A stretch of DNA of 35,650 nucleotides from Microthyrium microscopicum. Taxonomy: Eukaryota. Made by a program: the position numbers and the translations under genes. Below the pieces are notes generated by a model. The model did not search any database. It saw nothing but the letters and a program-made list of their open reading frames with translations, and was not told the DNA's origin. Location of the stretch: contig MU004234.1 in assembly GCA_010405405.1 (NCBI GenBank), positions 726,993 through 762,642 of the forward strand. The letters run 5' to 3'. Each line of letters starts with the position of its first letter. Positions within the stretch are counted from its first letter, which is position 1. Below are positions 6,606 through 35,650 of this stretch, one piece after another.

Positions 6606-7401
6606 TCAGACGGCATCATCGTTGTCTTCATCCTCTTCCTCACTTGGCTCATGCCAGGTAATGGTAGGAGGCTTAAGACTCTCAGCTCCTGCAGCAATCA
6701 GTCGTTTGATCTGTAAATGGCGTGCAATGATGCTCTGGCGAGCAGCTGCAGGACCTCCAGACATCGGGATGTGTTTGCATGCAGTAGCAATGGCATCAAA
6801 CTTTACTTCGCGACGTTCCTCCAGGAGGTCTTCTATCTGGCCGGCAGCCACCCTGAGTTCCCTCTCTATCCTGTCTTCGAGCAGTGGAGGGTCTAAAGGA
6901 GGAAAGTCGGCCAGTCGGACCCTGTCATTATCGATGAAAGCTGCACGGGTAACGATCCGTTTGTAGTAATTGCTGAACTGTTCGTCGAGGCTGTTGTCGA
7001 TCATCATCTGGTCTGCAACTATCGAAGTTAGCTTCACACTATCATATGATTTGGTTTGACTCATAACAAATATAACTGGATCTGAATGGAAAGAACTCAC
7101 GTAATCGTCGGAACGTGAAACGCCCGTGGACGACTCCAATATGAACGTCAAGATCTTCGTCAGTTCGAAAGAGCTTCAGGCAAAGCTTGTCTGAGTTGTC
7201 AACTGTACATCGGCATAGCAATTCGCCTGGAACAAGGACAACCAAGCCGCCATCTTCTTCATAGAACTTGACTGAGTTTCGAATCTGGACTGGTATGCCC
7301 GATTTGATTCTCAACGCAAACCCTTGGAGAAGTCCAAAGTACGCCAGATAATTCTCATTGGATTCCAGACGCTTAGGATATATACTCGGGATGAGCGACA
7401 T
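6606..7401 (-). CDS. Hypothetical protein with one C2H2-like zinc finger and an acidic C-terminus, 237 aa
   Basis: ORFs 7042..7401 and 6606..7151 join in frame through intron 7100-7019 (GTGAGT..GCTAAC..TAG). Motif C(R)C..CLKLFRTDEDLDVHIGVVH fits C-x3-F-x5-L-x2-H-x4-H. Upstream TATAAAG at 7713-7707 and a candidate 5'UTR intron donor at 7580. Confidence 0.7.
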
Positions 7402-8632: not shown

Positions 8633-9386
8633 TCATGATTCATCCAATTCTTCGTCCTCATCAGACTTTTCCTCTTCATCAGACTTTTCCTCTTCATCAG
8701 ACTCTTCCTCTTCATCAGACTCTTCCTCTTCATCAGATTCCTCGATTTCATCGAAGCCTTTTTCTTCCTCGCTGTCTGTAAATGGATCCATGGCACCCCA
8801 ATATACCCTCTTGAGCAAATTATTATCGTGCTCCCAGAAATACCTAGCGAAAATTAGCATAACACTCTTACAGAATAAGATAGCAAATGGATTAGGTCAC
8901 GTACTTTGTTTCTCGGATTGGTGTTCGATCTTTGCAGTCAAGGCAAGTCTCAACAAGATGATCCTTACGATCTAGCCACGCGAGGAAGTCTGTTTGAAAC
9001 TGGCTGTACCAAGCAATCTGGCGGGACAAAGGTCCGTCATAGTCATGTCGGTGATAGTCCCATCCTCGACCCTTCCGGCATACCTCTACGACTCTGAAGC
9101 AAGTAGCCTTCCGGTACGATTCGCAGCCACAGCAGTAGAGGACTTTTAGACGGTGCAGAGAGTGAGTGCCACCCTTAGTCAGAAATCGCAGGTAAGCTAG
9201 ATCCGGAAAGGTGCCATCTTCGATCAGAAAGTCGGTGTTGGTCGGAGCGACAATGATGACGTGGTATGCTTTGGAGACTGTGCGAAGGGAAAGCTTGTCC
9301 ATGGCGCCAAGGTACTGGATGATATCGAGTTTGAGCTCATTGGGAATTCCTTGGAGCGAAGCGCGGGGAGGGACGTGAGCGGCCAT
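8633..9386 (-). CDS. F-box + CxxC/CxxC zinc-binding protein, array copy A, with acidic repeat tail; 230 aa from ATG 9386, or 239 aa from ATT 9469
   Basis: F-box ASLQGIPNELKLDIIQYLGAMDKLSLRTVSK; YCCGCESYR..F and ETCLDC. Intron 8904-8844 (GTACGT..GCTAAT..TAG) joins to YFWEHDNNLLKR...EESD repeats. Upstream intron 9458-9403. Confidence 0.85.
8658..8737 (-). repeat. 18-bp coding tandem repeat, about 4.4 copies, encoding (EEE[EK]SD)n
   Basis: Plus-strand unit TCATCAGACTYTTCCTCT starts at 8658, 8676, 8694 and 8712, with a partial copy at 8730. Confidence 0.9.
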
Positions 9387-9544
9387 CGAAACTTGTTGAG
9401 GACTGTCTGGCTGTTAGGATGCTATTTTATCTTTCAGGGAGAGAAAAAATATGCTTACGGAGTTTCAATCTTTTTGATATTTCGAAGTGGGCTGATTTTG
9501 AAGATTGTTGTCGGAGGGAAGCAGAGATTACAAAAGCGATGGTG

Positions 9545-9551
9545 CTATATA
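9545..9551 (-). promoter_or_regulatory. TATA box of F-box copy A
   Basis: TATATAG on the minus strand, 82 nt upstream of the leader-exon start (ATT 9469); same spacing as in the other three paralogs. Confidence 0.65.
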
Positions 9552-9879
9552 CACCAAGAATGCGGGTCGCAAAATCACCTATGATGTCAATTTTTGAAAG
9601 CCTAGTCACACGTGCAGTCAAGGATGAGACTGAGACTGAGGTTTCAAGGCTTAATTGGGGATGCTTAAGGTAAAGCTCTCATCGCTTAGGAAACGGCAAA
9701 AGCCGAGTTATAGCACGATGTGGAAGGCAGTGTTGTTGATCTTCTGTAGGTAGCTTCTTCTTCCGGGTTGTGATACTGCAGAGCTAATCACAGGAAAATC
9801 AAGATGCTTGGTTTGGATATCATTGATCGAATGTGCTACCGCCCACACTTCCAGCTACCTACTTTAGGTACCCGTGTAC

Positions 9880-10559
9880 CTAGGTAGGTACGACATATAC
9901 GTGCCGGACCCGAAACTCTTCCAACAATCCCTCAAAATCCACAAGCCAAATGTAACTACGAGTACGAATTAGCACAAACCCTATAAACTCAAAAGTGTAA
10001 AGGCCAACAGACACCTCTGCCTTAAGAACATCTGAAAGTTCGCAATCAATACAGGTCTCCAGACGCCAATGTTTGTGGCGTCTCCACTTCCCTAAGTCTT
10101 GGTTGAAATGGAAGCTCACGTTCCGCGAGACGGCGGATTCGATACCACTATACCAGTGCTCTGGCTGTGCAGCGTACGAAGAATGCCGCTCAATATTTTG
10201 GGACATTCGACCCATTCTGAAATTCTTGATCTTGCGATATTTTCGACATTCAGCGCAGTGAAGAACTGGGATGTTCTGGAATCGACGGTTGCGAACGAGG
10301 TCATCATTTGCCGGGAGATCGGTGATAAGGGTGTGGTAATCTTTGGAAAGAGCATGAAGAGCCAGTTTTCCTAGTGGGTCCAGGTGCTTCACTATCTCAA
10401 GCTTCAGCTCTGCCGGAATACCTTGGAGAGAAGCGCAGGGAGGTAGTGGGAGTGGTGGACGAGTGGCCATGTTGGGTGCTGGAGCTCTATAATGATTCAT
10501 GTTAGAGCTGTTAATGACTTGAGAAGCTAAAGAAAAGGATATACTCACAGCTCTGCCAT
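9880..10559 (-). CDS. F-box + CxxC/CxxC zinc-binding protein, array copy B, about 186 aa
   Basis: Leader exon ATG GCA GAG CT (10559-10549) and intron 10548-10487. F-box ASLQGIPAELKLEIVKHLDPLGKLALHALSK; HCAECRKYR..F and ETCIDC. Probable 57-nt in-frame intron 10012-9956 (weak donor GTCTGT) before YIW; TAG 9882-9880. Confidence 0.8.
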
Positions 10560-10633
10560 GGCGTAGTGAGGCCCCTTTCGCAGAAGGTTGTAAGAGTGTT
10601 GCAACAGAGTCGAAGATGAAGTGCGGGATAAGA

Positions 10634-10640
10634 CTTTATA
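10634..10640 (-). promoter_or_regulatory. TATA box of F-box copy B; a CRE-like TGACGTCA lies at 10669-10676
   Basis: TATAAAG on the minus strand, 81 nt upstream of ATG 10559. Confidence 0.65.
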
Positions 10641-11199
10641 CTGTCCAAAAATCCAAGTGGGAAAACTTTGACGTCAGCCTAATTTGGGAAAGTGCCGGGT
10701 GTGATTGAGGACCCGAGTATTTGGGAAGGAGCAGAACAGGACAAATGACATGACCCATTACAGAAGCCGACTGAGCTCTGACGTGTTTTTCCTTCCGAAT
10801 GTGAGGACTGTGGAAGAGGAAGAGCGATCAAAGCTAGCAATCGCTTAGAATTTTGATATATCGTCGGGTTGAAGCCTCTGGGTTAGCTAGTGTTGTGTTC
10901 GGATCGAAGAGAAGTAGCACACTCTTGGCCTAGCAATGTGAAATTATTCGAAACCTAAGCCGGATAGGTTTGATGGTCGGGAGATGTTCGTGGCTGTTGA
11001 TATGAGCTAAGCTGAGAGAAACCACATACACTTATCACATTCATCGAACGCAATGATATCTTTAATTCCCATTAGCTATGGTATCCCGTCTTTTGTGAAT
11101 ATAAGAGCAGGCCAGAGCAACACAAGGAATCCGGAGCGAGAGCAGCAGAGAGCAGCCAGTGCCTCAAGTATAGCTAGCATCTCACCTCTTTTCTTCCTC

Positions 11200-11810
11200 T
11201 CAGTCATCCTCTGTTTCATGATTTGTAGCCTGATCGATGTCCCATTTCTCGTAGAAGTCTGGCCGCCAATTTTTCTTCTTCAGCAAAGCCATTAGTGGGC
11301 CCAGGGGCTGTTGCCAAAGGTATCTAAAAGGTCTGAAAATCAGTACAGGAACAACTTGGAGTGGCTGAGTTGATGTGTAAAGACTTACCGATCTTGCTAA
11401 AGCTGACAGTCAGTACAAAGCTCGAGGCGAAAGTCCTTGCGCCGCCGCCATCGCAGCATGGCAGAAATCCACCAACACCAGAACTTGTTATCCTGGTTAA
11501 TCTCATCGTCATTCCGCGGGCAACGACGTTGAAGAGCCTGTACTTCTAGGTACAGTTTTGAGATATCAAAATGATGGGCAGCGCGGTACGTTCCACAAGA
11601 AGCGCAACGGATGACTTTGAGCATATCGACGTAACATTTGTCGGCTAGTTCGTCATTTGTCAACGGCTCGATGATGTTGTAGTAATGCTTGGAGACAGTT
11701 CTTAGAGTAAGTCTTGCGTATGGACCAAGGTACTTTACGATCTCGAGCTTAAGTTCGTCTGTTATTCCTTGGAGAGAAGCGCGTGGTGGAAGTGGAAAAG
11801 GGGTAGACAT
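11200..11810 (-). CDS. F-box + CxxC/CxxC zinc-binding protein, array copy C, with an in-frame premature TAG (137 aa truncated, 181 aa if recoded); pseudogene or recoded gene
   Basis: F-box ASLQGITDELKLEIVKYLGPYARLTLRTVSK; RCASCGTYR..F and ELCTDC. TAG at 11399-11397, then CAA GAT CG|GTAAGT intron 11388-11324 and an intact exon YLWQQPLGPLMALLKKKNW...ETEDD-TGA (11202-11200). Confidence 0.8.
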
Positions 11811-11969
11811 TGTGCTTGCTGAGGGCTGCAACGATATTAGAATCGTTGAGAAGTTCTGGGCCAAAGCGATGGAAGTACTTAAGGCTTTGCCATCGCAAGT
11901 TGAAGCTCAAGTCGCAGGGTGTTGTGACAGTGGTGAAGGAGAGTTGAGCATGAGGTGGCAGGAGAATGG

Positions 11970-11976
11970 TTTTATA
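11970..11976 (-). promoter_or_regulatory. TATA box of F-box copy C
   Basis: TATAAAA on the minus strand, 83 nt upstream of the homologous leader ATG 11893. Confidence 0.6.
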
Positions 11977-12480
11977 CACCTTAAAAGTACCGAATGAGTC
12001 CGACAGGTGACAAAATCTCCGGATTATTATTGCAACCTGATCATTGCAGGGGGCAGCCGCCTGGCTTTGAGAAATGGCATGATGGCAATAGTGCAGAGGT
12101 GCTGCATGACCGGGAAAGGGAGACTACGGCATGCCTCTGTGTCAATTTAGTCCTGGCCCACGACTGAGTCCACATAGAGCATGCCTATCAGCTAACAGGT
12201 AGTCAAGCCTAACACTGTATGCCTTTCTTCGAAACTTGAGTACTGCGAAAGGGCAAAAAGGCATAAGATTTTGGAACAGCGTTCAAGACGTTCATCGAAT
12301 GATGGTATTGATTCATACCTTCGATCCGGTGTGTGAAGTTGGAATATCGTACCAAAAGAATTCAGAGATTGGATGTATAGAAAGGCGCCAACCAATTCAT
12401 TCAAGTACGGATTAAGATTCTGTTATATATCGCTGTTCATATGGTGGCCGTGGCCTTTGACACCTCGTCATCTCAATCGA

Positions 12481-13169
12481 TCATACAGTACACTTGGGAA
12501 CAACACCCAGCTTTCTGCGAGGACCGATATCTCCAATACCGCTCCAATTCTCATGGAATAGTTCCATGACCTGCACGAACTTCATGTCCCAGATGTAGCT
12601 TCAAACCAAGTCAGCAGATGTGCGAGAGAAACTACAGAGCTGAAGTGCGACTTACTCCTTGTCTTGCTTGCCATTCTCATCCTTGCAGTCACCACAAATC
12701 TCGTGAAGGTAGACTTGGTTTCTCCGCCATGAGTCCATATCTCTCTTGAGCTTGCCTGTAAACCATCGAGCGAACGGACTAGTTATTGCGCCAAGTCGAT
12801 GAAGCTTCTTAAAGTAAAGATCTTCGTTGACTCCCTTGACAATGTTGAACTCGCTGGGTGGTCGAAATCCTTTGCACTGCTCACAGTACAAGACCCGAAA
12901 TTTGTTGACCGGGATTTTGGGGACAAAGTCGGAATTTGTTGGCTTTGGCAGAAAGCTGTACTCCAGACAACTTCCTCGGAGAGCAAGCTTGTCGAAAAGA
13001 CCGAGATATTGGACGATCTCTAATTTGAGCTCAACCGGTATCCCTTGGAGCGATGCTTTCGGCGGTGCGGCAAAACGAGCGTCGCTGCTGCCAGCTTGAG
13101 CGCTGTCACGATGTTAGCAATCCTGAAGTATATGGCTCAGAAAGAAGAAAATACTTACCGTTTCTCCAT
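12481..13169 (-). CDS. F-box + CxxC/CxxC zinc-binding protein, array copy D, 191 aa
   Basis: Leader exon ATG GAG AAA CG (13169-13159); introns 13158-13103 and 12655-12599, both GTAAGT..CTRAC..AG. F-box ASLQGIPVELKLEIVQYLGLFDKLALRGSC; YCEQCKGFR..F and EICGDC; last exon YIWDMKF...KCTV*. Confidence 0.85.
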
Positions 13170-13243
13170 GTTGTAAACGAGTGTCCAGTGAAGGTTGAAT
13201 TGAACAACTGGTGAATAGAACACAATAAGAGCAGGAGGAGAGG

Positions 13244-13250
13244 CTTTATA
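13244..13250 (-). promoter_or_regulatory. TATA box of F-box copy D
   Basis: TATAAAG on the minus strand, 81 nt upstream of ATG 13169. Confidence 0.65.
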
Positions 13251-13854
13251 CAACTCAACATTGCTGAGACGATTCCAGCATGTGCCATTTCCAAGTGAAC
13301 TTTCAAACCAAGAAGACGAAATTGGAAAGCTGCGGTTGCAGAGTTGAGAAGCAACACAGAACCATCGTTGTAGGAGAGCTGCTTAGAATGGAAAGATGTG
13401 CTGGAGGTTTCAAACTAAAATATGCGAATGTCGGGTTCGTAGCATTCGATCGTCGAGGTATGCTTACTTGAAAGGGAAGTCGTGGCTAAGCATGCTGTTG
13501 GAGAGTGTTGGAAAAGGGGCTGATGGGCGACGATGCTGTTACAACATTTCGCGTGCGTGGATTGGAAAGGAGGATGACAAGAAGCTGGAAGAGCTAAAAG
13601 ACCTGATATGCCAGAGAAGCAGTCAATTAATTATGAGCAAGATATCTTGCGGCGAGAGGAAGAGCATATTATAGCTTATATGATTGCAGCCTTGCCAAGG
13701 GAGGCAAGACGCCGTCAACACTGCATCTGGTCACTGCAAACATGCGATCGATATGAAAGACCAGATGTCATGAAACCATTCGTAATTTCCTTAGGATAAG
13801 AGTAGGCTGATTGGGAACATGGTATGGAAGAACTTCGAAAGGCTCTCTTGCCAT

Positions 13855-15246
13855 TCAGTCTACCCGAACAATGTCCCTAACCAACAACCACTTCCTAACA
13901 GTCTCACTCTGATACCTCTCCAATCCCCCCTTTGCCCACGGCGTCACCCCACCCAACAGCGCATTCGGCGCCTGTAGGTCAACCAGCTCAGCATCAACAT
14001 CCTGAATCCGCCGGTCTCTCGTCGCCAACAAAATGTTCAGAATAGTCTTCGCCCCTAGAAAACTCTGTATCGCAGGCACCAGCTGCAAATTCGGCATCCA
14101 CGAGTTCGCCAATTCACTCGCGCGACTCGTCATCTTGGAAACAGCAGTGCCAATAAAACCAGCCGGGGCATATTTGCCCATATCGCCATAGACATCGCCA
14201 GAGCCTTGCGTTAGCTCGCCTCGCATGCTAGTTTCTAGGGCTGTGAGAGATGCTCGGGCGCCGCGTTGGAGAATTTGGTTGGCTGGATCGTTGGCCGCGA
14301 TGGATGAGAAGAGCCAGTGCAACACGAGATCTGCGCAGACAGCGTTGGGAATGACAGGCGTGGTCAGCGCATTGGGTAAACTGAAGAGAAGCTTTTCGAC
14401 GATGTTGACACCTGTGCGGAAGAAGCGGAACTTCTGGCGTCCGAGGTCGTAGTGGCAGCCAGGGAACCAGCGCTCGTTAATAGAGAAGTCTGAATCATCT
14501 TTGTGTTCGAATGTAGCTGAACGTCTTGCGCGACAGGGTTGGAAGGCCCAGAGACGATCGTGCATGGAGCAAGCGTGGTAGACACGCCGGACGGACGCGC
14601 TGACGTCTTGGCTGAAGAATTCGGGATAGTCGAAACCGCCGGCCTGTGCGTTGAGGCGTGGGATTCCGAGGGAGCCGACTGTGTCAATGATCCCGAGGAA
14701 GGCGATGGGGGAGTTGACTTGCCAAGAAGCTTTGGCGCGGAAGGTCTGCATGGATGGGTGGGAAGGTTTGTCTTCGTCGTAGGGAGAGCGGTAGATCGCG
14801 TAGACTTCTTCGACTAGGCGGCGCGTGGAGTCTGTAGTGAGTAAAGGTTTGACGATACCACAGTTGTTGATCATGCCACCGATACAGCGGACAGTGTAGG
14901 AGCCGCGGCTGAGGCCGAACATCCAGATATCAGTGTCGTCGTCAAAGTTTTCAACGATGTATTGATAGCCTTTCATGCATTCTTCGCCAATGGTATTTGC
15001 GGTAGCGCCGTCGAAGAGGTAGTCTAGAAAAGTTCCTCCAAGACCGATGCCTGGGAAGTAGCACGCTTTTAGGCTTCTAGATGGATCTTCGTATGTGAGC
15101 GGTTCAGTATCTGTTGGTGCTATGCTTGCTGGAATTCCAATGGCTTTTGCGATAAGGGAGACATTAGTTTCAGTGCCTGTTTCTCTGCCACACCATGTCC
15201 CGTCAAACAGTACAACTAGCTTCTTAGAACGCTCGAATTTAGACAT
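13855..15246 (-). CDS. DUF2235 / T6SS Tle1-like alpha/beta-hydrolase domain protein, 463 aa, intronless
   Basis: Family motifs LVVLFDGTW, TNV, FGLSRGSYTVR (nucleophile G-x-S-x-G), DTVGSLG and WFPGCHYDLG. First ATG at 15246. Confidence 0.9.
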   Translation of the reverse strand: MSKFERSKKLVVLFDGTWCGRETGTETNVSLIAKAIGIPASIAPTDTEPLTYEDPSRSLKACYFPGIGLGGTFLDYLFDGATANTIGEECMKGYQYIVENFDDDTDIWMFGLSRGSYTVRCIGGMINNCGIVKPLLTTDSTRRLVEEVYAIYRSPYDEDKPSHPSMQTFRAKASWQVNSPIAFLGIIDTVGSLGIPRLNAQAGGFDYPEFFSQDVSASVRRVYHACSMHDRLWAFQPCRARRSATFEHKDDSDFSINERWFPGCHYDLGRQKFRFFRTGVNIVEKLLFSLPNALTTPVIPNAVCADLVLHWLFSSIAANDPANQILQRGARASLTALETSMRGELTQGSGDVYGDMGKYAPAGFIGTAVSKMTSRASELANSWMPNLQLVPAIQSFLGAKTILNILLATRDRRIQDVDAELVDLQAPNALLGGVTPWAKGGLERYQSETVRKWLLVRDIVRVD

Positions 15247-15597
15247 GGTGAGAGGTAACAGGGCAATGAAGATGGCGAACAAGTTTATAGATTCTTCCAG
15301 CACTTGGAGACTATAAATTCAAACTTGTCAAATTCAGGAATACGGTGCTGCTCCCACCATTTTGAGGCCAGCTTCAGCTGCCCAGACTGTTCGTATTGGC
15401 ATGCATCTCAGCCGCAAGCTTCATGCATATATTATGCAAGGTGGGCTGACATCTTTGAGGCCGCAGCTTGAAAAAACAGGCGATACAAGGCCACTTGGAA
15501 ATTTGGAACCCAGCATATGCTGCAAGTATTGACCAAGAGGAGTAATCTTTCAGACTCTACAGAGTGTGTAACGGTATTTGGGCCGAGTTGGAGAGCT

Positions 15598-16336
15598 TCA
15601 ATCCAAATCACCCCAGTCACTGCGTGCAGCCACAAAGGCTTTTGACGATGTTCCATTCGCCATCTGATCGAGCTCATTGGTGGTTGCGACCTGAGGTAAG
15701 GCGCTCGTGATAGCGTCAACGGTTTCTCTCATCTTCTTGACAGATTGTATTTGCGCTTTACGTGTCTCAACTTGGCCCTCCAGGATTTCGATCAACGATT
15801 GACGGGCTTGATGGGGTCGGTATTCATTGACAATATGCAGCACATTGATAAATAGGTTCTCGATATCAGCCCATTTGTTCCAGGCTTGGGTAGCGTCTTG
15901 AGAAAAGATCCCAACGAGTTCAAGAAAGTTTACAAGGATAGATCGAATGGCTCGTTGGAGGTGGACCGCTCGATCAACTGACCAGTCGGACTGCGCTTTG
16001 TCTTGTGTGTCGCCAGATTCTTTAGGTCCGCTCGGAAAGAGGTTGGTGAGGCCTATTTCCTCGAGAGGTGGAAGTGTATTGTGGATCTACAATGTCAGGT
16101 GGATGCGATGCAGAGGGGGCTCTGATACTCACATCGTAATTGCCGCTAAAGACGACATACTTGCCATCAGCGGGAGGAGGAGGAGGAACAAGGGGTATCA
16201 GATCTTGAGGTATATCTTCCCCTTCGCGTTGAAGGTCCTTGACCGTGTCTACATTTTCTTGGGTAAACAATTGCCAAAATGGTGGGGGAGCTGGAAAGAG
16301 TTCGCTAAACGCGCTGTCTTCTTGTGGGGCAGCCAT
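15598..16336 (-). CDS. MED7: Mediator of RNA polymerase II transcription subunit 7, 230 aa
   Basis: N-terminal FPAPPPFWQLFT and LVPPPPP; SILVNFLELVG and VNEYRPHQARQSLI. Intron 16132-16087 (GTGAGT..CTGAC..TAG). Confidence 0.93.
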
Positions 16337-28392: not shown

Positions 28393-30897
28393 TTAAACAA
28401 TCGTGACTACGACCTCCTTCGTGCTCTCAGGCCCCGATTTCTTATCCCGACGCCAGAACTTCCATTTCCTTGGCCGCTCAGTAATGTCGAACTGGTGGTC
28501 TTCCTGAGCAATAGCTGTTGCAGTTGAGCGCTGAGCTATATCGATCGTAGGAGGTCTTGTACTACGTGAAGACCTTGCGCTCGTGGAATCGTCAGGACAA
28601 TCACTGTCGTTCCAAAGTCTCTCTGGTTCCTTGGTGGTCGAATCCGTAGTACATTTTAAACCGCTAGGTTGAAGTCTTTTGTAAAGTTGAGTTGACCGAA
28701 AGTACTTGGTAACGAATCTCGTTACCCGAACACGCATAATAAATTCCAAAGCCGCCCAAACAGCCATGCCTGTGACTATCAGGGACACAAACTCTGCTGT
28801 TACTACAGACCATTAGCTATTCCCTCTTCTGAAAGAAGTTTGATTCACTTACCCATCCATTTGCCAATATATTTGACCGTATACTTCGGGGTTCCATCGT
28901 CAGAACCTGGCGGCGACTCGTTGTGTGGGAAGATATCCACCGACAGGGAGAACAGCGCTGCAAGGAACGATAAGGGAGTAAAGATGATAGTAATAACAGT
29001 GAGACCGAACACAGCCGCGCTCATAGCGGAAGCTGTACGGCTCTCTCTCAGACTGGCATGTTTCTGCTTGAGATCCAGTTTGACGAGAATGGACCTTTCC
29101 ACTCTTTCAGCGTCTTTGTCTAATTTGGCCATTCGTCGTTTTATCTTTGGGAACTGCATCTGTGGTTTCTCCAATAGAGTCATTATCTCTGGTACAGAGA
29201 GTTTCGTATCCAAAGGCTTTTGAAACTGTCCATCTTGCCCATTGGGCCAGAAATGGGGTAGCGATTTGTACATGATTTCTCTCCAGATCTCTTCTTGTTG
29301 AAGAACCACGCTCTGAATCATGGAAAGCTCATCACGCACGTCAGCAATTTCATGCAGGAAATTTCCTTCTGTTTCGAGACTGATTGAGTCCAATTCCCTG
29401 AGATATCGATTGACCCTCTCCGAGACGTTAGAAATTGACGTCTCAAATACATTGAGGATCGGTTCAGAGAGACCGCCCATTGTCGGGCGATGGAACAGGT
29501 CTAAAAACCGTGACATAACCAGTCCGGCCAAGAGTTCCGGAGAGTCTGTAGTTGCAGAACCATCAGAGCCCGAGCGGCTTCTATGTGGCAATCCATAAAT
29601 GTAATCGAAACACATACTTTCTGAGCTAGTGCCACCTTCAGTCCAAACAAGGTTTTGTAAATCCTCCGATGATGCAGTCATGTATATTTCACCGATCTTC
29701 CATATCCACAACTGAGGGATAGTTATCAGCCGAATCTGATTCAGGTCTTGGTTTTTAACACCGCCTTGGTATCGGACTAGCACTTGATCATTGTTGCGAC
29801 GATTTAAAGTACACTGGTCAAGACCTGGGTTACAATACTCATCTAAACTAAGGGGCAGATATTCCTGGTCTTGGTCGAAAGCACTGACACAATACTTTCT
29901 GTTTTTGGATACCAAGTTGCGCTTTCGGCGAGCTCTGAAACTGGCAATTGACTCTGTGTGAACTAATGGTATCTGGATGAGTCAGGAGGATTCTGCAAAC
30001 AATGAAGAATGGGGGGCTGGGCTTACTACTGCTGTCCAACATTCGTAGGATTGATCAATTATGTTCACAGTTATGTTTCCAATACTCAGCGACGCTTCTC
30101 TAAATACCAGAGAGCGACTGGAAGCCCACTCTTTGTTGAACCCTTCAGCGAGATACGTGAGGGCTGCATGTAACAAGCATATATATCTGAAGCAGTTGCT
30201 GCCATTGGGGTGTTTTCCAAGCTCGTTGCATCTGAAGATGTGTCGGAACAATGCCTACTCTAGCATCTCAGCAGTTGATTTCGAGCATTAGGTAGGCATA
30301 TCTCAATAGGTTTGCACATACCCGTATCCAGAATAACTGTTCTGCGAATTAGTCAGGCTCAAAGATATTAACTTGCGAATTTAGATATTATGCTACTCCT
30401 TGAACAAAAACAAAACTTACATCATTGCCATTGACATGGTACCACTTGCACTCGCGCTCCTGAAGCTTGTCCTTGCGCTGTAACTCTTTCAATGTAGAAA
30501 TACGACTGCGTGCGTAAAATGTCCGACCTTGACCATTCTTTTCTAGATTTTCGGCTTCGACAAACGCGAAAGCACCCTGTGTCGCATATTTTCGAAACCT
30601 CAAGGCGAGATCCCACGGGGTATAGTCGTGCAATTGAGGCCGAGTCTGGTCCCAACGGTCCTTGCCGAAGGTCGGGTCGATGCTCTCACCAACATCGCCT
30701 GATTCAGCAGCCACTCGTAGGCATGGATTGGCACCTTTTGTCAGTAGCATCTCGACCACTTCACAGTGGCCGAATCTAGCAGCTAAGCAAAGCAAAGTGT
30801 AGCCCTCGGCGTCCTTATCTTCGATATCAATCAGATTTCTGGAAAGAAGATACTCCACAATCCGAAAATAGCCAAACCTAGCAGCGGTATAGGCCAT
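28393..30897 (-). CDS. Ankyrin-repeat + CorA-like two-TM-domain protein, probably 5'-truncated by a transposon; about 749 aa remain
   Basis: Ankyrin repeats (AYTAARFG, GYTLLCLAARFGHCEVVEMLLTKGAN). Introns 30420-30337, 30321-30255, 30026-29973 and 28852-28803 give one continuous frame. CorA-like motifs SLDEYC..RNNDQV, IPQLWIW, EIADVRDELSMI and FGLTVITIIFTPLSFLAALF. Confidence 0.82.
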
Positions 30898-30900
30898 ACT

Positions 30901-33900
30901 TAAGCCTATGCTAAGGCATAGGTTGGGTAACCTATTAGGGTTGACCCAATATATATAGGTTCTTAGCATTAGGTTAGGTTTTAAAAATATTTTATAAAAC
31001 CTATACCTAACCTAAGTAAGATAAAATTATTATAGGTTAGACCTAAGGAACCTAAAGGACCTAAATTAGGAACCTATTAAATAAAGTTTATTTAGTATAT
31101 AACTTATTTAGGTTATAAAAAAAAGGTTACTATACCTAATATAGTTAGTAAAAGCTAAATAGGTAGAGATAATCTAGTATATAAATTAAAGAGTTAAAAA
31201 AGTATTAATTAAAATATTTAGTATAGTATATAGATTAAACTATATATTAACTAGCTACTATTACTAAAATCCTAATAACTAGTTTAAACCTTTTTCTTCT
31301 TACTAGCCTTATTAGAGACTATACTTATTAGTAGTTACTTTTACTTATTCTCTAATTCCTACTAAAAGGTAGACTTAAATATTAGTTTATAAACTCTTTT
31401 ATTAGTAGTTATTATAAGTAGAAACTTACTAATATCTTTTAGTAATTATCTATAAAAAAAGTCTTAAGTATTACTATCCTTTACCTTATTACTATTCTTA
31501 CTATTATCTAAATTTATACTATAGAATCTAGAAGAGGTCTTTAAGCCTATAGATTTACTAGTATTAGTACTCTTAAGGTTTTTTTCTTCTTTAGTAAACT
31601 TAAAATTAGTATTATTTTTATTATTAAAACTATCTTTACTAGCTTTATTTATGTTCTTATTTAAAATATTATTATCCTTACTTAAATTATTTAAATTATC
31701 TTCTCTATTAGAAATAATAAGTAACCTATCTAAATCTTTATAATAAGTTATATAATTAAATATTTAATAGTATATAGTATTAAGATTACTAAAATGAATA
31801 TAATTAAGTAGGGTATTTATAAGTTATTTTATAATTATATTAATATATTTTTTATATATACTAACCTCTACTTTAATCTTATTAAAATTACCTTAATAGT
31901 CTAAAATATTAGCTATTAATTTAGTAAACTTATTATTATTATATTAATAGAGTATATCTTATAATAGTATAAGGTTATAAAATATCTAAGAAAAGTAAAG
32001 ATAATTATATTTAGATTAGTTATAAATAATAGAAAAGATATATTCTACTCTAACTTTAGTAGCTAATATATAAAAATAATTACGTGCTATATAAGCTATT
32101 ATTAAATAAAGGTCTAGATTATTATTTTCTTTCTATATAAGAAGAGAATTATTATTCTTTATAAATACTATTATTATATTAGTAAATTATAAATAATATA
32201 ATAATAAAGATATACTACTTTTAAAGTATTATATAAACTTATTAAATAAAGATAAGCTAGTTAGGCTATTATCTACTATAATATTATTATTATCTATAAT
32301 TAGTTCTATATTATTAAATTAAGTATTTAAATTACTATACTTCTTAAGCTAAACTTTATAAAGATCTTTAATTATTACGTTACGTTAAAATAAACTATTT
32401 AAATTAGAGTAATCTTTCTACTAAGAATTAGTAAAGATAGACTTAGCTATATAAGGAGATAATAATTAACTAAAAGTATAAATACGTTATAGTTAAATAT
32501 TAATTTATATTAAGTTAAAATATACTTATAGTTTTCTTTAAGCTTCTTTTAGACTAGACTAAAGTTTACTCTACTAATATAGTTAAGTACTTACTAGTAT
32601 ATATTTACTTAGAATAGCCTCTTTATTATTAATATATTAAAAGAGCTTTTAGAAGTATAAAAGGACTTTATAAATAGATAAAGCCTTAAATTTATTAAGA
32701 ATCTAAATTATAGCGTTAAATAGAGTAGTAAACTAAACTAAATACTTAATATTAGCCTATTCTATATTAAATAGTATAAGAATCCTTACCTATTACTAAT
32801 CTTTCTTTTTTCTAGCTTTATAAGCTTTAGTAATAAAAAAGTATATAAGAAGCATCTTAATAATTTAAAAGTAAAGTCTTATTATTATTATTAAGTCTTA
32901 GCGTATTTTAATATCTTAGATTAGCTAAAAGTTACTATAAGAATTAAGATTATTCTAGTATTTATTAATAAAGTATAGATTAGATATTTAGAATTTATTA
33001 GAATAAAAACTAGCTAAGTAAGTAAGAAACCTAAAAAGATATAGTTTAGAAGAGCTAATATACTTAGTAATACTATAAGCCTAAATTATATTAGCTATTC
33101 TAATTAATACTTTTTTAACTTACTAAAAATAAGAACTAACTTATCTTATATAAAATAAGAATAACTAAGCTATATTTTATAATAAGTTTCTTCTCTTTTA
33201 AAATATCTTCTTTAATAAATACTTATTTAATTTCTTTATCTATAGACTTATAGCTAAGATAAGAAAGTAAAGCGCCTTATACTAGTTAAATAATATAAGA
33301 TATATAAAGAACTTAAATAATACTTATAATACGCTTAAAGTATTAATATATATTTAATATAGATATTATTATTTTATTATTACTAGCATTATTAACTATA
33401 ATAAAGCAAACTTTCTTAGTAATACTATATTAATTAAATATATTACTTATAAGTTTAGTATAAGCCTTATCTATAGACTTTCTAATAGTAGAAAAAAAGC
33501 TAAGAAGCTTCTCCTTTTATTCTTACTATAAAGTAATCTATTATCTAATAATAGCTAAGTACTCTTTATAAGTAAAATTTAAAGACTACCTATCTAGCTA
33601 AATACTAATATATATATTATTACCTAGCTAAATAAACTTCTCTCTTAACTTTATAAGATTAATTATAACTTATCTTATAACTTTTAAAGTAATAGTTTTC
33701 TATAAAGTAAATTAAGGTTAAATACCTAATAGTATATAGTAATTAATAACTTACTATATAAATTATAATTTAAATATACTAAGAGGAAGACCCTTAGCTA
33801 TAATTAAACGCGTTTATAAAATAAGAAAATTTTATAGTATAATCTTATACTTATTAAAGCTATAAGTAGCCTTAAGCTTTACGTTATATATCTATAAATA

Positions 33901-34620
33901 TTATAATTAATAATAATATAGTATAGTAGAAATTAAATATACTAGAGTTATAGTTAATCTTATTTAATTAAGTATAATCTAATTTTTATTACCTTTAGCT
34001 ATAGTAATATTATTATAATCTTAGAAAGTAATATACTTATTAAGTAATCTTTATTTAATAAGAGAGGTACTAGTATTATCTTTATAAAGATGATAATATT
34101 TAAGGAACTTATAATAATAAATATAGTAATAATAAGACTAGCTAGTAGACTTAAAGGCACCTACTTATATACTATTTTAAATAGGGCTTTTTTTCTTATT
34201 ATATTAATAAAAATCTATTTATATAGGAATTAGCCTTTCTTAGTTAATAGTAAACTAAGATATAATTTACTACTAAGTCTAGAAATAGTTATTAGTATCC
34301 TTACTCTATAAATATACCTTTTTTTCTTAATTACTAGATTCTTTTAATACCCTAAGTATTATACTAAAAATAAAAGAGATAGATACTAGTAGGCTAAAAG
34401 ATAATATACTAATAGGAAAGTTTAAGATAGTACTATTAGTAATAGTATCCTTATCTTAAATAGTAGGTTATAATAATAAAAAGGAAGTTATTAAGCTAGT
34501 TTTAAATATAAAGGAATTAGAAATAGAAGTAAAAAAAGATATAATTTAAAGTAGCGTTAACTTTATTAAAAAAACCTAAGGTTCTAAAGGAATAAAATTA
34601 GTAAGTTAAAAAAGTATTAA
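30901..34620 (-). mobile_element. RIP-mutated hAT-superfamily DNA transposon; right boundary approximate
   Basis: Short GGTTRGGT/ACCYAACC subterminal-type motifs at 30920-31080. hAT transposase motifs are recoverable on the minus strand after reversing RIP changes. A similar ACCTAAGGTTCT motif occurs near 34575. Confidence 0.75.
31990..33610 (-). pseudogene. hAT transposase relic: catalytic core and C-terminal dimerisation domain
   Basis: The minus strand reads ISI*LDR*S (LDGWS, 33597-33586), YLAIIR**IT, KEKLLSF, KVCFIIVNNASNN (DNASNN, 33393-33376) and *KE...IARNYFYILATKVRVEYIFS (W..MARDY.IPAT.VGVERIFS, about 32135-32031). The substitutions needed to restore these motifs are C>T or G>A. Confidence 0.82.
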
Positions 34621-35650
34621 TTAAAAATTTAGTATTATTTATATTATCTTATAATATTATTTATAAAAACTTCTATTTATTCTTCCTCTCCTTTTAATAT
34701 TAATTAATTATACTCTATATTCTAATTATCTACTTCTTAATTATACTAATTTAACTAATCTAATAATTTAGAAGATAACTAATATAACGTATTTCTCTTT
34801 TTAACCTCTTATATTACTATGCTATTAAACTCTTTCTTAATCTATTATATTTTTTAGCTCTCCTTAGAACTACTTAGCTTAGTCTTCTTTCTTTAAAAGT
34901 AATTCTATAAACTAGAGATTTATAAAGTTATTCTTTTATATAATCTATACTTAGTCTAATTATTACTAGTAGTTAGCTATTTTATTTTTCTTAACTAGTA
35001 TATTTACTAAAAAGTAATACTAGTTCTACCTAGGTAGTTATAATATATTATATAAGATATGCTAAATCTAAAAATTATTTCTATAATTAACTTTATTATA
35101 CTACTTAATATAATATTTAAACTTTAAAGTAAGAATATCCTAATAGCTTATTAATCTCTATACTTAATTTAAAAAGATAATATACTAATTAACCTCTATT
35201 ATATTTTCCTTATTATAGTAATAAAAAATGCTATCTAAATTAATCTACTTATATCTTTATATCTAAATAATAATTAAATAGTAGAGAATATTTTAGTCTA
35301 AAAATAATTATAAGGCTAGAAATAAGTAACTAAGGTACTTCTTACTTTAATTATTTTTAGTTATAAAGATTATACTACTAGAAAAAATTATAACTATTAT
35401 TAATAGCTATTTAAAGAGTATTATTACTAAAGTACCTACTAAAAAATAATAATTAGCTATTTATAAATTATATAACGCTTTTATATAGAAAGTTTTAGAA
35501 CTATAGTCTTAAAGAGTAAATAAGTATAGATATTAATAGTAGGAAGTATAAGTAGTATTATTATTATTATAGTAATTTAAGTTTATACTATTTATACTAA
35601 CTAGAAATATTTATAATAAATTCTTTAAAGTTTATTATATAAAAGTATAT

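What the first reader, a model, noticed from the sequence alone, without database searches (positions are those of the whole stretch)
8633..13250. Head-to-tail array of four diverged F-box / zinc-finger paralogs: candidate diversified SCF-adaptor locus
Seen: four minus-strand genes spaced about 1.1-1.3 kb apart. They share an F-box (ASLQGI[PT]xELKL[ED]I[IV]x[YH]L), a CxxCxx[YF]RxxxxF motif, a distal E[TLI]CxDC and a last exon beginning Y-[FIL]-W. The roughly 55-60 aa between the two CxxC pairs is almost unalignable. The ORF track shows only fragments and misses the F-box of copy D. Known: F-boxes bind Skp1 and recruit substrates to SCF ligases; RIP strongly limits survival of near-identical duplicates. 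Inference: a conserved Skp1-binding end with a hypervariable, zinc-clamped substrate end, retained in a RIP-active genome, fits diversifying selection (defence, allorecognition, anti-transposon/antiviral, or meiotic-drive antidote). The function is not demonstrated.
Basis: partly seen in the sequence, partly recalled or inferred. Interest (0 to 1): 0.85.

Follow-up and report, generated by a model that had tools for sequence, protein, structure and literature searches.

The report
Old tandem fungal F-box zinc-finger genes
A leaf-dwelling fungus carries four old, spliced neighbouring copies of a small gene that probably picks proteins for destruction; they are a remodelled offshoot of a common but unstudied fungal family, one copy looks damaged, and nothing found here shows that they are a defence repertoire.

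Summary
The array is real: four minus-strand paralogs in Microthyrium microscopicum (named), each with its own TATA box 81-83 nt upstream; 7 of 8 predicted introns are skipped in a public contig. They are an offshoot of a widespread, uncharacterised ascomycete family: F-box plus two C4 zinc fingers. Here finger 1 has grown from about 29 to 59-64 residues (a predicted helical hairpin) and finger 2 is lost. Two more members lie on a contig of the same length. A, C and D are intact; B has a dead splice donor, a changed F-box proline and an in-frame TAG. The copies are ancient (synonymous sites near saturation) and show no RIP trace, so the RIP argument carries no weight. The substrate end diverged faster than in the parent family, but its mean dN/dS is about 0.3, not above 1. 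Best reading: lineage-specific SCF substrate receptors in slow birth-and-death evolution; targets unknown. The scan has not noted this family on other DNA, but unchecked notes list several similar old adaptor arrays in this genome.

The parts
12481..13169 (-). Copy A, intact, 191 aa; exons 13169-13159, 13102-12656, 12598-12481 (KAF2670041.1)
   Evidence: both introns skipped in contig X5; model equals P0006
11200..11893 (-). Copy B, damaged: intron-1 donor reads TT so the first ATG (11893) opens a 4-codon uORF; in-frame ATG 11810; F-box Pro changed to Thr; in-frame TAG 11399-11397 three codons after the distal CxxC; intron 11388-11333; frame continues 46 codons to 11200
   Evidence: intron 1 not skipped, intron 2 skipped, no other letters at the TAG in X5 or X2
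9880..10559 (-). Copy C, intact, 186 aa; exons 10559-10549, 10486-10013, 9955-9880 (KAF2670039.1)
   Evidence: both introns skipped; model equals P0005
8633..9469 (-). Copy D, intact from Met 9386, 230 aa; ancestral first exon 9469-9459 has ATT for ATG and is now 5' UTR; introns 9458-9403 and 8904-8844; no protein model returned by the searches
   Evidence: both introns skipped; PF00646 23.2 bits
8649..8737 (-). 18-nt tandem repeat (4.9 copies) encoding the acidic (E/D/S) tail of copy D
13245..13250 (-). TATA box of A, 81 nt before the ATG
11971..11976 (-). TATA box of B, 83 nt before the first ATG
10635..10640 (-). TATA box of C, 81 nt before the ATG
9546..9551 (-). TATA box of D, 82 nt before the ATT that replaced the ATG
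12958..13056 (-). F-box of A (B starts 11780, C 10434, D 9362)
12685..12885 (-). Expanded C4 finger of A: CxxC knuckle, 59-aa insert (predicted helical hairpin), CxDC (B 11606-11406, C 10257-10042, D 9134-8934)

Best explanation
The four genes are old tandem duplicates of a lineage-specific SCF substrate receptor. Step 1 (shown): each has its own TATA promoter and is transcribed and spliced; A, C and D have intact frames. Step 2 (inferred from the F-box match and from established SCF biology): the N-terminal F-box docks on Skp1 and so on Cul1-Rbx1. Step 3 (inferred): four invariant cysteines bind one zinc and pin the base of a 59-64 residue, basic and aromatic, helical-hairpin insert that, with the short last-exon helix, forms the surface that binds a substrate; the substrate is ubiquitinated and degraded. 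Step 4 (shown by comparison): this architecture arose from a common ascomycete F-box protein with two C4 fingers, by a roughly 30-residue insertion into finger 1 and loss of finger 2. Step 5 (inferred): after duplication the F-box stayed under strong purifying selection, the substrate end drifted or specialised under weaker constraint, and one copy (B) is now decaying: ordinary slow birth-and-death evolution of ubiquitin-ligase adaptors. The substrates are unknown.
For: Splicing of 7 of 8 predicted introns, absent from the DNA run. TATA at -81 to -83 in 4 of 4 copies against a background of 12 such words in 30 kb. PF00646 above threshold in 2 of 4; profile-profile match to the parent family 99.1%, E 6.7e-19 over F-box, linker and first knuckle. 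Parent family: first spacer 29 aa in 15 of 23 proteins (range 19-42), four CxxC pairs in 19 of 23; the six Microthyrium proteins have one spacer of 51-64 aa and two pairs. The distal CxDC matches pair 2 of the parent: Tyr at +11 in A, C, D and in 20 of 30 pair-2 contexts, 2 of 27 pair-3, 0 of 30 pair-4; shuffle p 0.014. Six Microthyrium rows form one side of a branch, 97/94. F-box dN/dS about 0.1, spacer about 0.3; F-box pS 0.59-0.88. Three lesions in B. Filamentous fungi have 60-90 F-box genes and fungal F-box expansions come mainly from tandem duplication (10.1101/349894, passages); 73 of 74 A. nidulans fbx deletions are viable (PMC9744329 section 7).
Against: Skp1 binding and zinc binding were not tested. 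A has a degenerate third F-box helix and no Pfam match at E<=1 for its exon-2 part; C is below threshold; 28 predicted A. nidulans F-box proteins were not found with SkpA or CulA. The inter-CxxC identity in the array (15-31%) lies at or below the lowest value of 26 parent-family pairs of like F-box identity (31-79%), and 0 of 21 parent-family loci carry a second copy nearby: the array is unusual for its family, which past positive selection would also explain.
Confidence: 0.62

Rival explanations
1. Conflict repertoire: the copies are SCF receptors selected to recognise and destroy foreign or selfish proteins (mycovirus, transposon, a linked drive toxin), with the zinc-clamped hairpin as a variable recognition surface, like the F-box antidotes of Caenorhabditis toxin-antidote elements.
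For: Substrate end more diverged than in the parent family at matched F-box identity while its length stays fixed; lineage-restricted clade; tandem only here, 0 of 21 parent loci; precedent: six nematode antidotes are F-box proteins next to their toxin (PMC13733741, passages); a gene without Pfam match lies 1.2 kb downstream (7401-6606).
Against: Mean spacer dN/dS about 0.3; no young copies, no RIP trace, no repeats, GC like the flanks, between housekeeping genes; no toxin or target identified. Unchecked notes describe many similar old adaptor arrays in this genome.
Confidence: 0.15
2. Relaxed, dispensable copies: the array is kept only loosely; the substrate end is drifting and the set is on its way out, B first, with A and C losing F-box function.
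For: Three lesions in B, lost first ATG and a repeat-expanded tail in D, weak F-box scores in A and C. Most fungal fbx deletions have no strong phenotype.
Against: Three frames, all 16 zinc-ligand cysteines, spacer length, TATA spacing and intron positions survived while synonymous sites approached saturation; dN/dS below 1 in every region.
Confidence: 0.13
3. Non-SCF role: the basic, aromatic zinc-hairpin binds nucleic acid or chromatin, or the proteins act as Skp1 decoys, without substrate ubiquitination.
For: Spacer holds 10-14 K/R and 9-10 aromatic residues per 59-64 aa; the parent family's nearest fold hit is the Stc1 tandem zinc finger, not significant (E 0.74); non-SCF F-box uses are discussed in PMC9744329 (passages).
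Against: The spacer also has 5-9 acidic residues and no shared basic pattern beyond the WRR motif; no significant fold match to a nucleic-acid binder.
Confidence: 0.06
4. The TAG in copy B is a regulated stop, recoded to Trp by stage-specific A-to-I editing or read through, so B is a conditional full-length receptor and not a decaying copy.
For: The frame stays open 46 codons, the downstream intron is still spliced and YLW is kept; premature-stop correction is known in Fusarium (PMC10041177, passage); an unchecked note reports a shared in-frame TAG in another family of this genome (e1-7501803).
Against: Only 1 of 4 copies has it; no paralog has Trp or an aromatic there (C has Ser); no stable hairpin (z +1.3, +1.0, -0.4 in three folds); no other letter at the site in X5 (contigs drop variants); B has two further lesions.
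Confidence: 0.04

Closest known systems
Unnamed ascomycete F-box + double C4-finger family (e.g. Patellaria atrata KAF2838156.1, Fusarium falciforme KAM6513965.1; annotated only as F-box domain-containing or hypothetical protein)
   Same: N-terminal F-box, T/N-x-x-D/E-L linker helix, CxxC-x3-R-x4-F knuckle, CxDC with Tyr at +11, small size
   Different: Array proteins have 59-64 instead of about 29 residues between the pairs, lack the ADNM..RFC..G core and the second finger, have an intron after CxDC, and are tandem; 0 of 21 parent loci were
F-box proteins of SCF ligases (PF00646; Cdc4, FBXO4, A. nidulans Fbx set)
   Same: F-box motif and helices at the N-terminus; variable C-terminal part
   Different: No WD40, LRR or other curated substrate domain; Skp1 binding untested; 2 of 4 pass the Pfam threshold
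Stc1 tandem zinc finger (PDB 2luy, PF12898) and LIM-type treble-clef fingers
   Same: Top, non-significant Foldseek hit of the parent-family model (E 0.74), followed by LIM domains; CxxC knuckle followed by R-x4-F
   Different: No Pfam PF12898 match in 26 members at E<=1; array proteins keep one finger with a long helical insert; Stc1's role as RNAi-to-CLRC bridge (recalled) has no support here
Caenorhabditis F-box antidotes (SGYN-1, KSS-1 to 3) and nematode/plant fast-evolving F-box clusters
   Same: Conserved F-box, divergent substrate end, tandem clustering, lineage restriction (PMC13733741, passages)
   Different: No linked toxin shown, no homology of the substrate domain, four old copies with no sign of recent turnover or dN/dS above 1
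Tandem F-box expansion of Agaricomycetes (10.1101/349894)
   Same: Fungal F-box genes multiplied by tandem duplication
   Different: There recent and massive (67-1,199 copies); here ancient and small (six members found)

Membership tests
F-box protein (SCF receptor) | F-box sequence motif above the Pfam PF00646 threshold | tested here: met
   B 22.3 and D 23.2 bits against cut-off 20.5; C 13.1 (below); exon-2 part of A no match at E<=1. A and C are 55-61% identical to B and D over the motif
F-box protein (SCF receptor) | Three-helix F-box fold | tested here: inconclusive
   Model of A has helices 27-34 and 39-48 at pLDDT 84-89; no F-box chain among the listed fold hits for that model; the parent model aligns 36 residues to an FBXL5-Skp1 entry at rmsd 1.2, Z 2.0
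F-box protein (SCF receptor) | Binds Skp1 and Cul1 | not testable with these tools
F-box protein (SCF receptor) | Recruits a substrate for ubiquitination | not testable with these tools
   needs IP-MS and degradation assays
Ascomycete F-box + double C4-finger family | Homologous F-box, linker and first CxxC knuckle | tested here: met
   hhalign 99.1%, E 6.7e-19, 84 columns; parent profile finds 4 of 4 copies at E 1e-12 to 6e-16
Ascomycete F-box + double C4-finger family | Second CxxC pair about 29 aa after the first, with RFCxDCG | tested here: not met
   59-64 aa; CxDC and Tyr +11 kept, RF and G lost
Ascomycete F-box + double C4-finger family | Second finger (pairs 3 and 4) | tested here: not met
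   absent in 4 of 4; present in 19 of 23 parent proteins
Stc1 / LIM treble-clef zinc finger | Significant sequence or fold match | tested here: inconclusive
   no PF12898 match; Foldseek E 0.74 for the parent model; none listed for model A
Stc1 / LIM treble-clef zinc finger | Four cysteines meet around one zinc | not testable with these tools
   model coordinates are not exposed; 4 Cys invariant in 6 of 6 Microthyrium proteins
Fast-evolving defence or antidote F-box cluster | dN/dS above 1 in the substrate domain | tested here: inconclusive
   region mean about 0.3, 1.0 fits worse by 4.5 log units; four saturated sequences cannot test single sites
Fast-evolving defence or antidote F-box cluster | Polymorphism or copy-number change between strains; linked toxin | not testable with these tools
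   the three runs laid differ from the window at one letter in total; no relative's locus found
RIP-mutated repeat | TpA excess and CpA/TpG loss | tested here: not met
   composite index -0.34 to -0.71 for the four genes; 700-bp background -0.55 +/- 0.28; AT-rich end +1.4 to +2.0

The most novel reading that the evidence does not exclude
A zinc-clamped helical hairpin of fixed length and free sequence is a new compact variable-recognition scaffold, grafted into a common fungal F-box finger and multiplied as a small repertoire of SCF receptors that destroy selfish or foreign proteins; this would be an F-box antidote or immune cluster in an ascomycete, parallel to those of nematodes, with the unannotated gene at 7401-6606 as a candidate partner.
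Probability: 0.13. Interest if true: 0.72.

Novelty: new variant of a known kind. Interest (0 to 1): 0.3.

Why it matters
As it most likely is, it adds a clear, small example of how a ubiquitin-ligase receptor changes its substrate module (insertion into one zinc finger, loss of the other), corrects the annotation (D missing, B mis-spliced), and points to a widespread fungal F-box/double-C4-finger family that has no Pfam model for its C-terminal part. If the conflict reading held, it would be a fungal counterpart of nematode F-box antidotes and a new natural binding scaffold. The organism has, as far as found here, no second strain or close relative in the collections, which makes that hard to test.

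Tried and rejected
No whole genome was held, so copy number in the genome is a lower bound (six). Word-index protein searches were insensitive: 3 self hits with the four-copy profile, 7 hits with the mixed profile, none among longer proteins of 539-2000 aa (weak evidence against fused forms). No relative of the array clade in metagenome contigs (150 pattern matches, 0 confirmed). Fold searches gave no significant match for model A (Foldseek none at E<=0.001; best Z 5.6 to generic helical bundles) or for the parent model (best Z 2.8); this shows neither a new fold nor a known one. PDB sequence searches gave no hit at E<=0.001. Atlas: nearest clusters are ascomycete F-box or hypothetical proteins (0.95-0.96 for D; 0.85 or less for the part of A behind the F-box). 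No neighbour gene (Tle1-like, Med7, PAP2, carrier, two orphan frames) was found in 21 parent-family loci, so no conserved linkage. Polycistronic reading rejected: one contig spans all four genes but cannot show a single transcript, and each copy has its own TATA box. The reading that the distal CxDC is pair 3 or 4 of the parent (the 59-aa distance equals that to pair 3 in several parents) was tested and lost to pair 2. Recent gene conversion of the F-boxes rejected (pS 0.59-0.88). No listed run is on record as RNA; X5 is an RNA guess. X6 is low-depth and patchy and was not used. The C-terminal rows used a wrong frame for the last exon of A and are not used; corrected. No complex prediction was run. 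Rows dropped before counting: 5 of 30 (P0011 and P0025 low-complexity repeats, P0016 F-box only, P0017 double F-box, P0022 1161 aa not fetched).
Full report
OBSERVATION. The minus strand of 8633-13250 holds four paralogous genes. The F-box motif, the CxxCxx[YF]RxxxxF knuckle and the ExCxDC motif each occur once per copy; the F-box blocks are 65-73% identical in DNA to that of D and spaced 1072, 1346 and 1276 nt. The source annotation printed by the protein search names Microthyrium microscopicum, with consecutive accessions KAF2670039-41 for C, B and A; taxonomy: Dothideomycetes, Microthyriales. No whole genome was held.

GENE MODELS. Each copy has three exons with introns at the same places and a TATAWA 81, 83, 81 and 82 nt before the position of the first ATG; 12 such words occur on the minus strand of bases 1-30000. 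A 7290-nt contig of run X5 skips 7 of the 8 predicted introns with CT..AC ends, plus one in Med7, and the DNA run X2 skips none. X5 is only guessed to be RNA, and contigs give no level or stage, but the joints show spliced minus-strand transcripts of all four. My models of A (191 aa) and C (186 aa) equal the public ones. D (230 aa) has ATT in place of the first ATG, starts at an in-frame Met and ends in an acidic tail made by an 18-nt repeat; no protein record for it came back. B is damaged: the intron-1 donor reads TT (the one intron not skipped), which turns the first ATG into a 4-codon uORF; the F-box Pro is Thr; and a TAG stands three codons after the distal CxxC, confirmed by both runs. 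B can still make a 137-aa product with F-box and all four cysteines. The public model of B splices round the TAG; the contig does not show that joint.

FAMILY. Pfam finds an F-box above threshold in B and D, weakly in C, not in the exon-2 part of A, and no family for the rest. A profile of the four, run against 1.84 billion representatives, gave 30 hits at E<=0.001: 3 self, 2 further Microthyrium proteins on a contig of the same length (KAF2670130.1, KAF2670536.1), 20 small fungal-type F-box proteins with CxxC motifs, and 5 rows that I dropped. The 20, with four more and 21 metagenome loci, define a parent family: F-box, linker helix, CxxC-x3-R-x4-F, about 29 residues, RFCxDCG, then a second finger. 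Named members come from Patellaria and Fusarium; the Atlas places D nearest to ascomycete F-box clusters. Profile-profile comparison joins the two groups over F-box, linker and first knuckle (99.1%, E 6.7e-19). In 23 parent proteins the first spacer is 19-42 aa (29 in 15) and 19 have four CxxC pairs; the six Microthyrium proteins have two pairs 51-64 aa apart. The distal CxDC corresponds to parent pair 2: Tyr at +11 in A, C and D, in 20 of 30 pair-2 contexts, 2 of 27 pair-3 and 0 of 30 pair-4 contexts; shuffle p 0.014, 0.60, 0.21. So the array proteins gained about 30 residues inside finger 1 and lost finger 2. In a 36-row tree of the alignable N-terminal part the six Microthyrium rows form one side of a branch (97/94); a clade of the four alone is not rejected (p-AU 0.21), with long-branched P0020 inside. 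None of the 21 parent loci has a second copy in the DNA held, though several loci are near-duplicates and only 14 exceed 7 kb.

STRUCTURE. The model of A (mean pLDDT 70, pTM 0.55, 29 sequences) shows F-box helices, a short knuckle at C77/C80, two long helices (90-106, 113-131) forming the insert, and a helix from the last exon. The parent model is confident (pLDDT 87); its best Foldseek hit is the Stc1 tandem zinc finger, then LIM-type fingers, none significant. Model A has no significant match. Zinc binding by the four invariant cysteines is inferred.

EVOLUTION. Synonymous sites are near saturation even in the F-box (pS 0.59-0.88; dS 1.2-1.8 where estimable): the duplications are old. The window does show RIP (bases 31000-35650, GC 0.18, index +1.54), but the array scores like its flanks (-0.56), and copies this diverged are outside what RIP recognises (threshold near 80% identity, recalled). 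Their survival therefore says nothing about selection. The stretch between the CxxC pairs is 15-31% identical among copies whose F-boxes are 55-61% identical; 26 parent pairs of like F-box identity have 31-79% (parents were partly found through that motif, which inflates their figure). So the substrate end did evolve faster. But its length is fixed, a Trp is invariant, 4 of 6 pairs align above chance, and a codon model puts dN/dS near 0.1 (F-box), 0.3 (knuckles) and 0.3 (spacer), with 1.0 worse by 4.5 log units for the spacer. Saturation and alignment choice bias these values down, and four sequences cannot test single sites, so past positive selection is neither shown nor excluded. The three runs laid show one differing letter in total, so there is no population signal.

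MECHANISM. Shown: four promoters, spliced transcripts, three intact frames, F-box homology, the remodelled finger. From established SCF biology: the F-box binds Skp1 and the C-terminal part recruits a substrate (PMC9744329, passages). Inferred: the zinc-pinned hairpin plus last-exon helix is the substrate surface and the copies have different or relaxed specificities.

COMPARISON WITH WHAT IS KNOWN. It works like an F-box receptor; membership is met at motif level and untested at binding level. It descends from the double-finger family but fails two of its defining features, so it is a variant. Filamentous fungi carry 60-90 F-box genes and mushroom expansions arose mainly by tandem duplication (10.1101/349894, passages); in A. 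nidulans 73 of 74 deletions are viable, 8 genes matter for development and 28 predicted F-box proteins were not found with SkpA or CulA (PMC9744329, section 7). F-box antidotes beside toxins are known in Caenorhabditis (PMC13733741, passages); premature-stop editing is known in Fusarium (PMC10041177, passages). I found no paper on this family or locus in eight searches (listings only, except the four papers named); the library lacks most subscription papers, and I opened no supplements, where A. nidulans domain tables might list a parent-family member. Stc1's function and the limits of RIP are recalled. Unchecked notes of this scan list an F-box/LRR array, three BTB arrays and two small Cys-motif arrays of similar age in the same genome, which makes tandem adaptor arrays look like a habit of this genome; no look-alike of this protein was noted on other DNA.

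VERDICT. Real, expressed and structurally distinct, but most likely an ordinary kind of event. New variant of a known kind; interest 0.3.

Noticed in passing
window 6606-7401, minus: Probable two-exon gene (intron about 7100-7013, GTGAGT..TTGCAG, roughly 235 aa) 1.2 kb downstream of copy D; neither frame has a Pfam match. Candidate orphan; homologs not searched.
   Followed up: partly
window 13855-15246, minus: Intronless 463-aa protein with a Tle1-like catalytic domain (PF09994, E 4e-52) directly upstream of the array on the same strand; no such neighbour in 21 parent-family loci.
   Followed up: partly
window 31000-35650: Sharp switch to a heavily RIP-mutated block (GC 0.16-0.19, CpA/TpG almost absent), right after a CorA-like plus ankyrin gene at 28845-31011.
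   Followed up: partly
P0014, P0033, P0037-P0040, L001-L021: The parent family (F-box plus two C4 fingers, RFCxDCG core, often an acidic Trp-ending tail) is widespread, folds confidently and has no Pfam model for its C-terminal part; its weak best fold hit is Stc1. It may deserve its own study.
   Followed up: partly
KAF2670130.1 (P0008) and KAF2670536.1 (P0020): Two dispersed Microthyrium members of the same one-finger clade (spacers 51 and 57 aa), outside this window.
   Followed up: partly
window 8708-16086: One contig of run X5 runs unbroken through Med7, the Tle1-like gene and all four F-box genes, intergenic DNA included; overlap of UTRs, read-through or DNA carry-over cannot be told apart.
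   Followed up: no
L003:533-1186 and L014:5962-6698: Parent-family genes that come in two pieces (stop, frameshift or intron), possibly decayed copies in other fungi.
   Followed up: no
P0017: A parent-family protein with a second F-box and the start of a second finger after the first unit, an intragenic tandem repeat.
   Followed up: no
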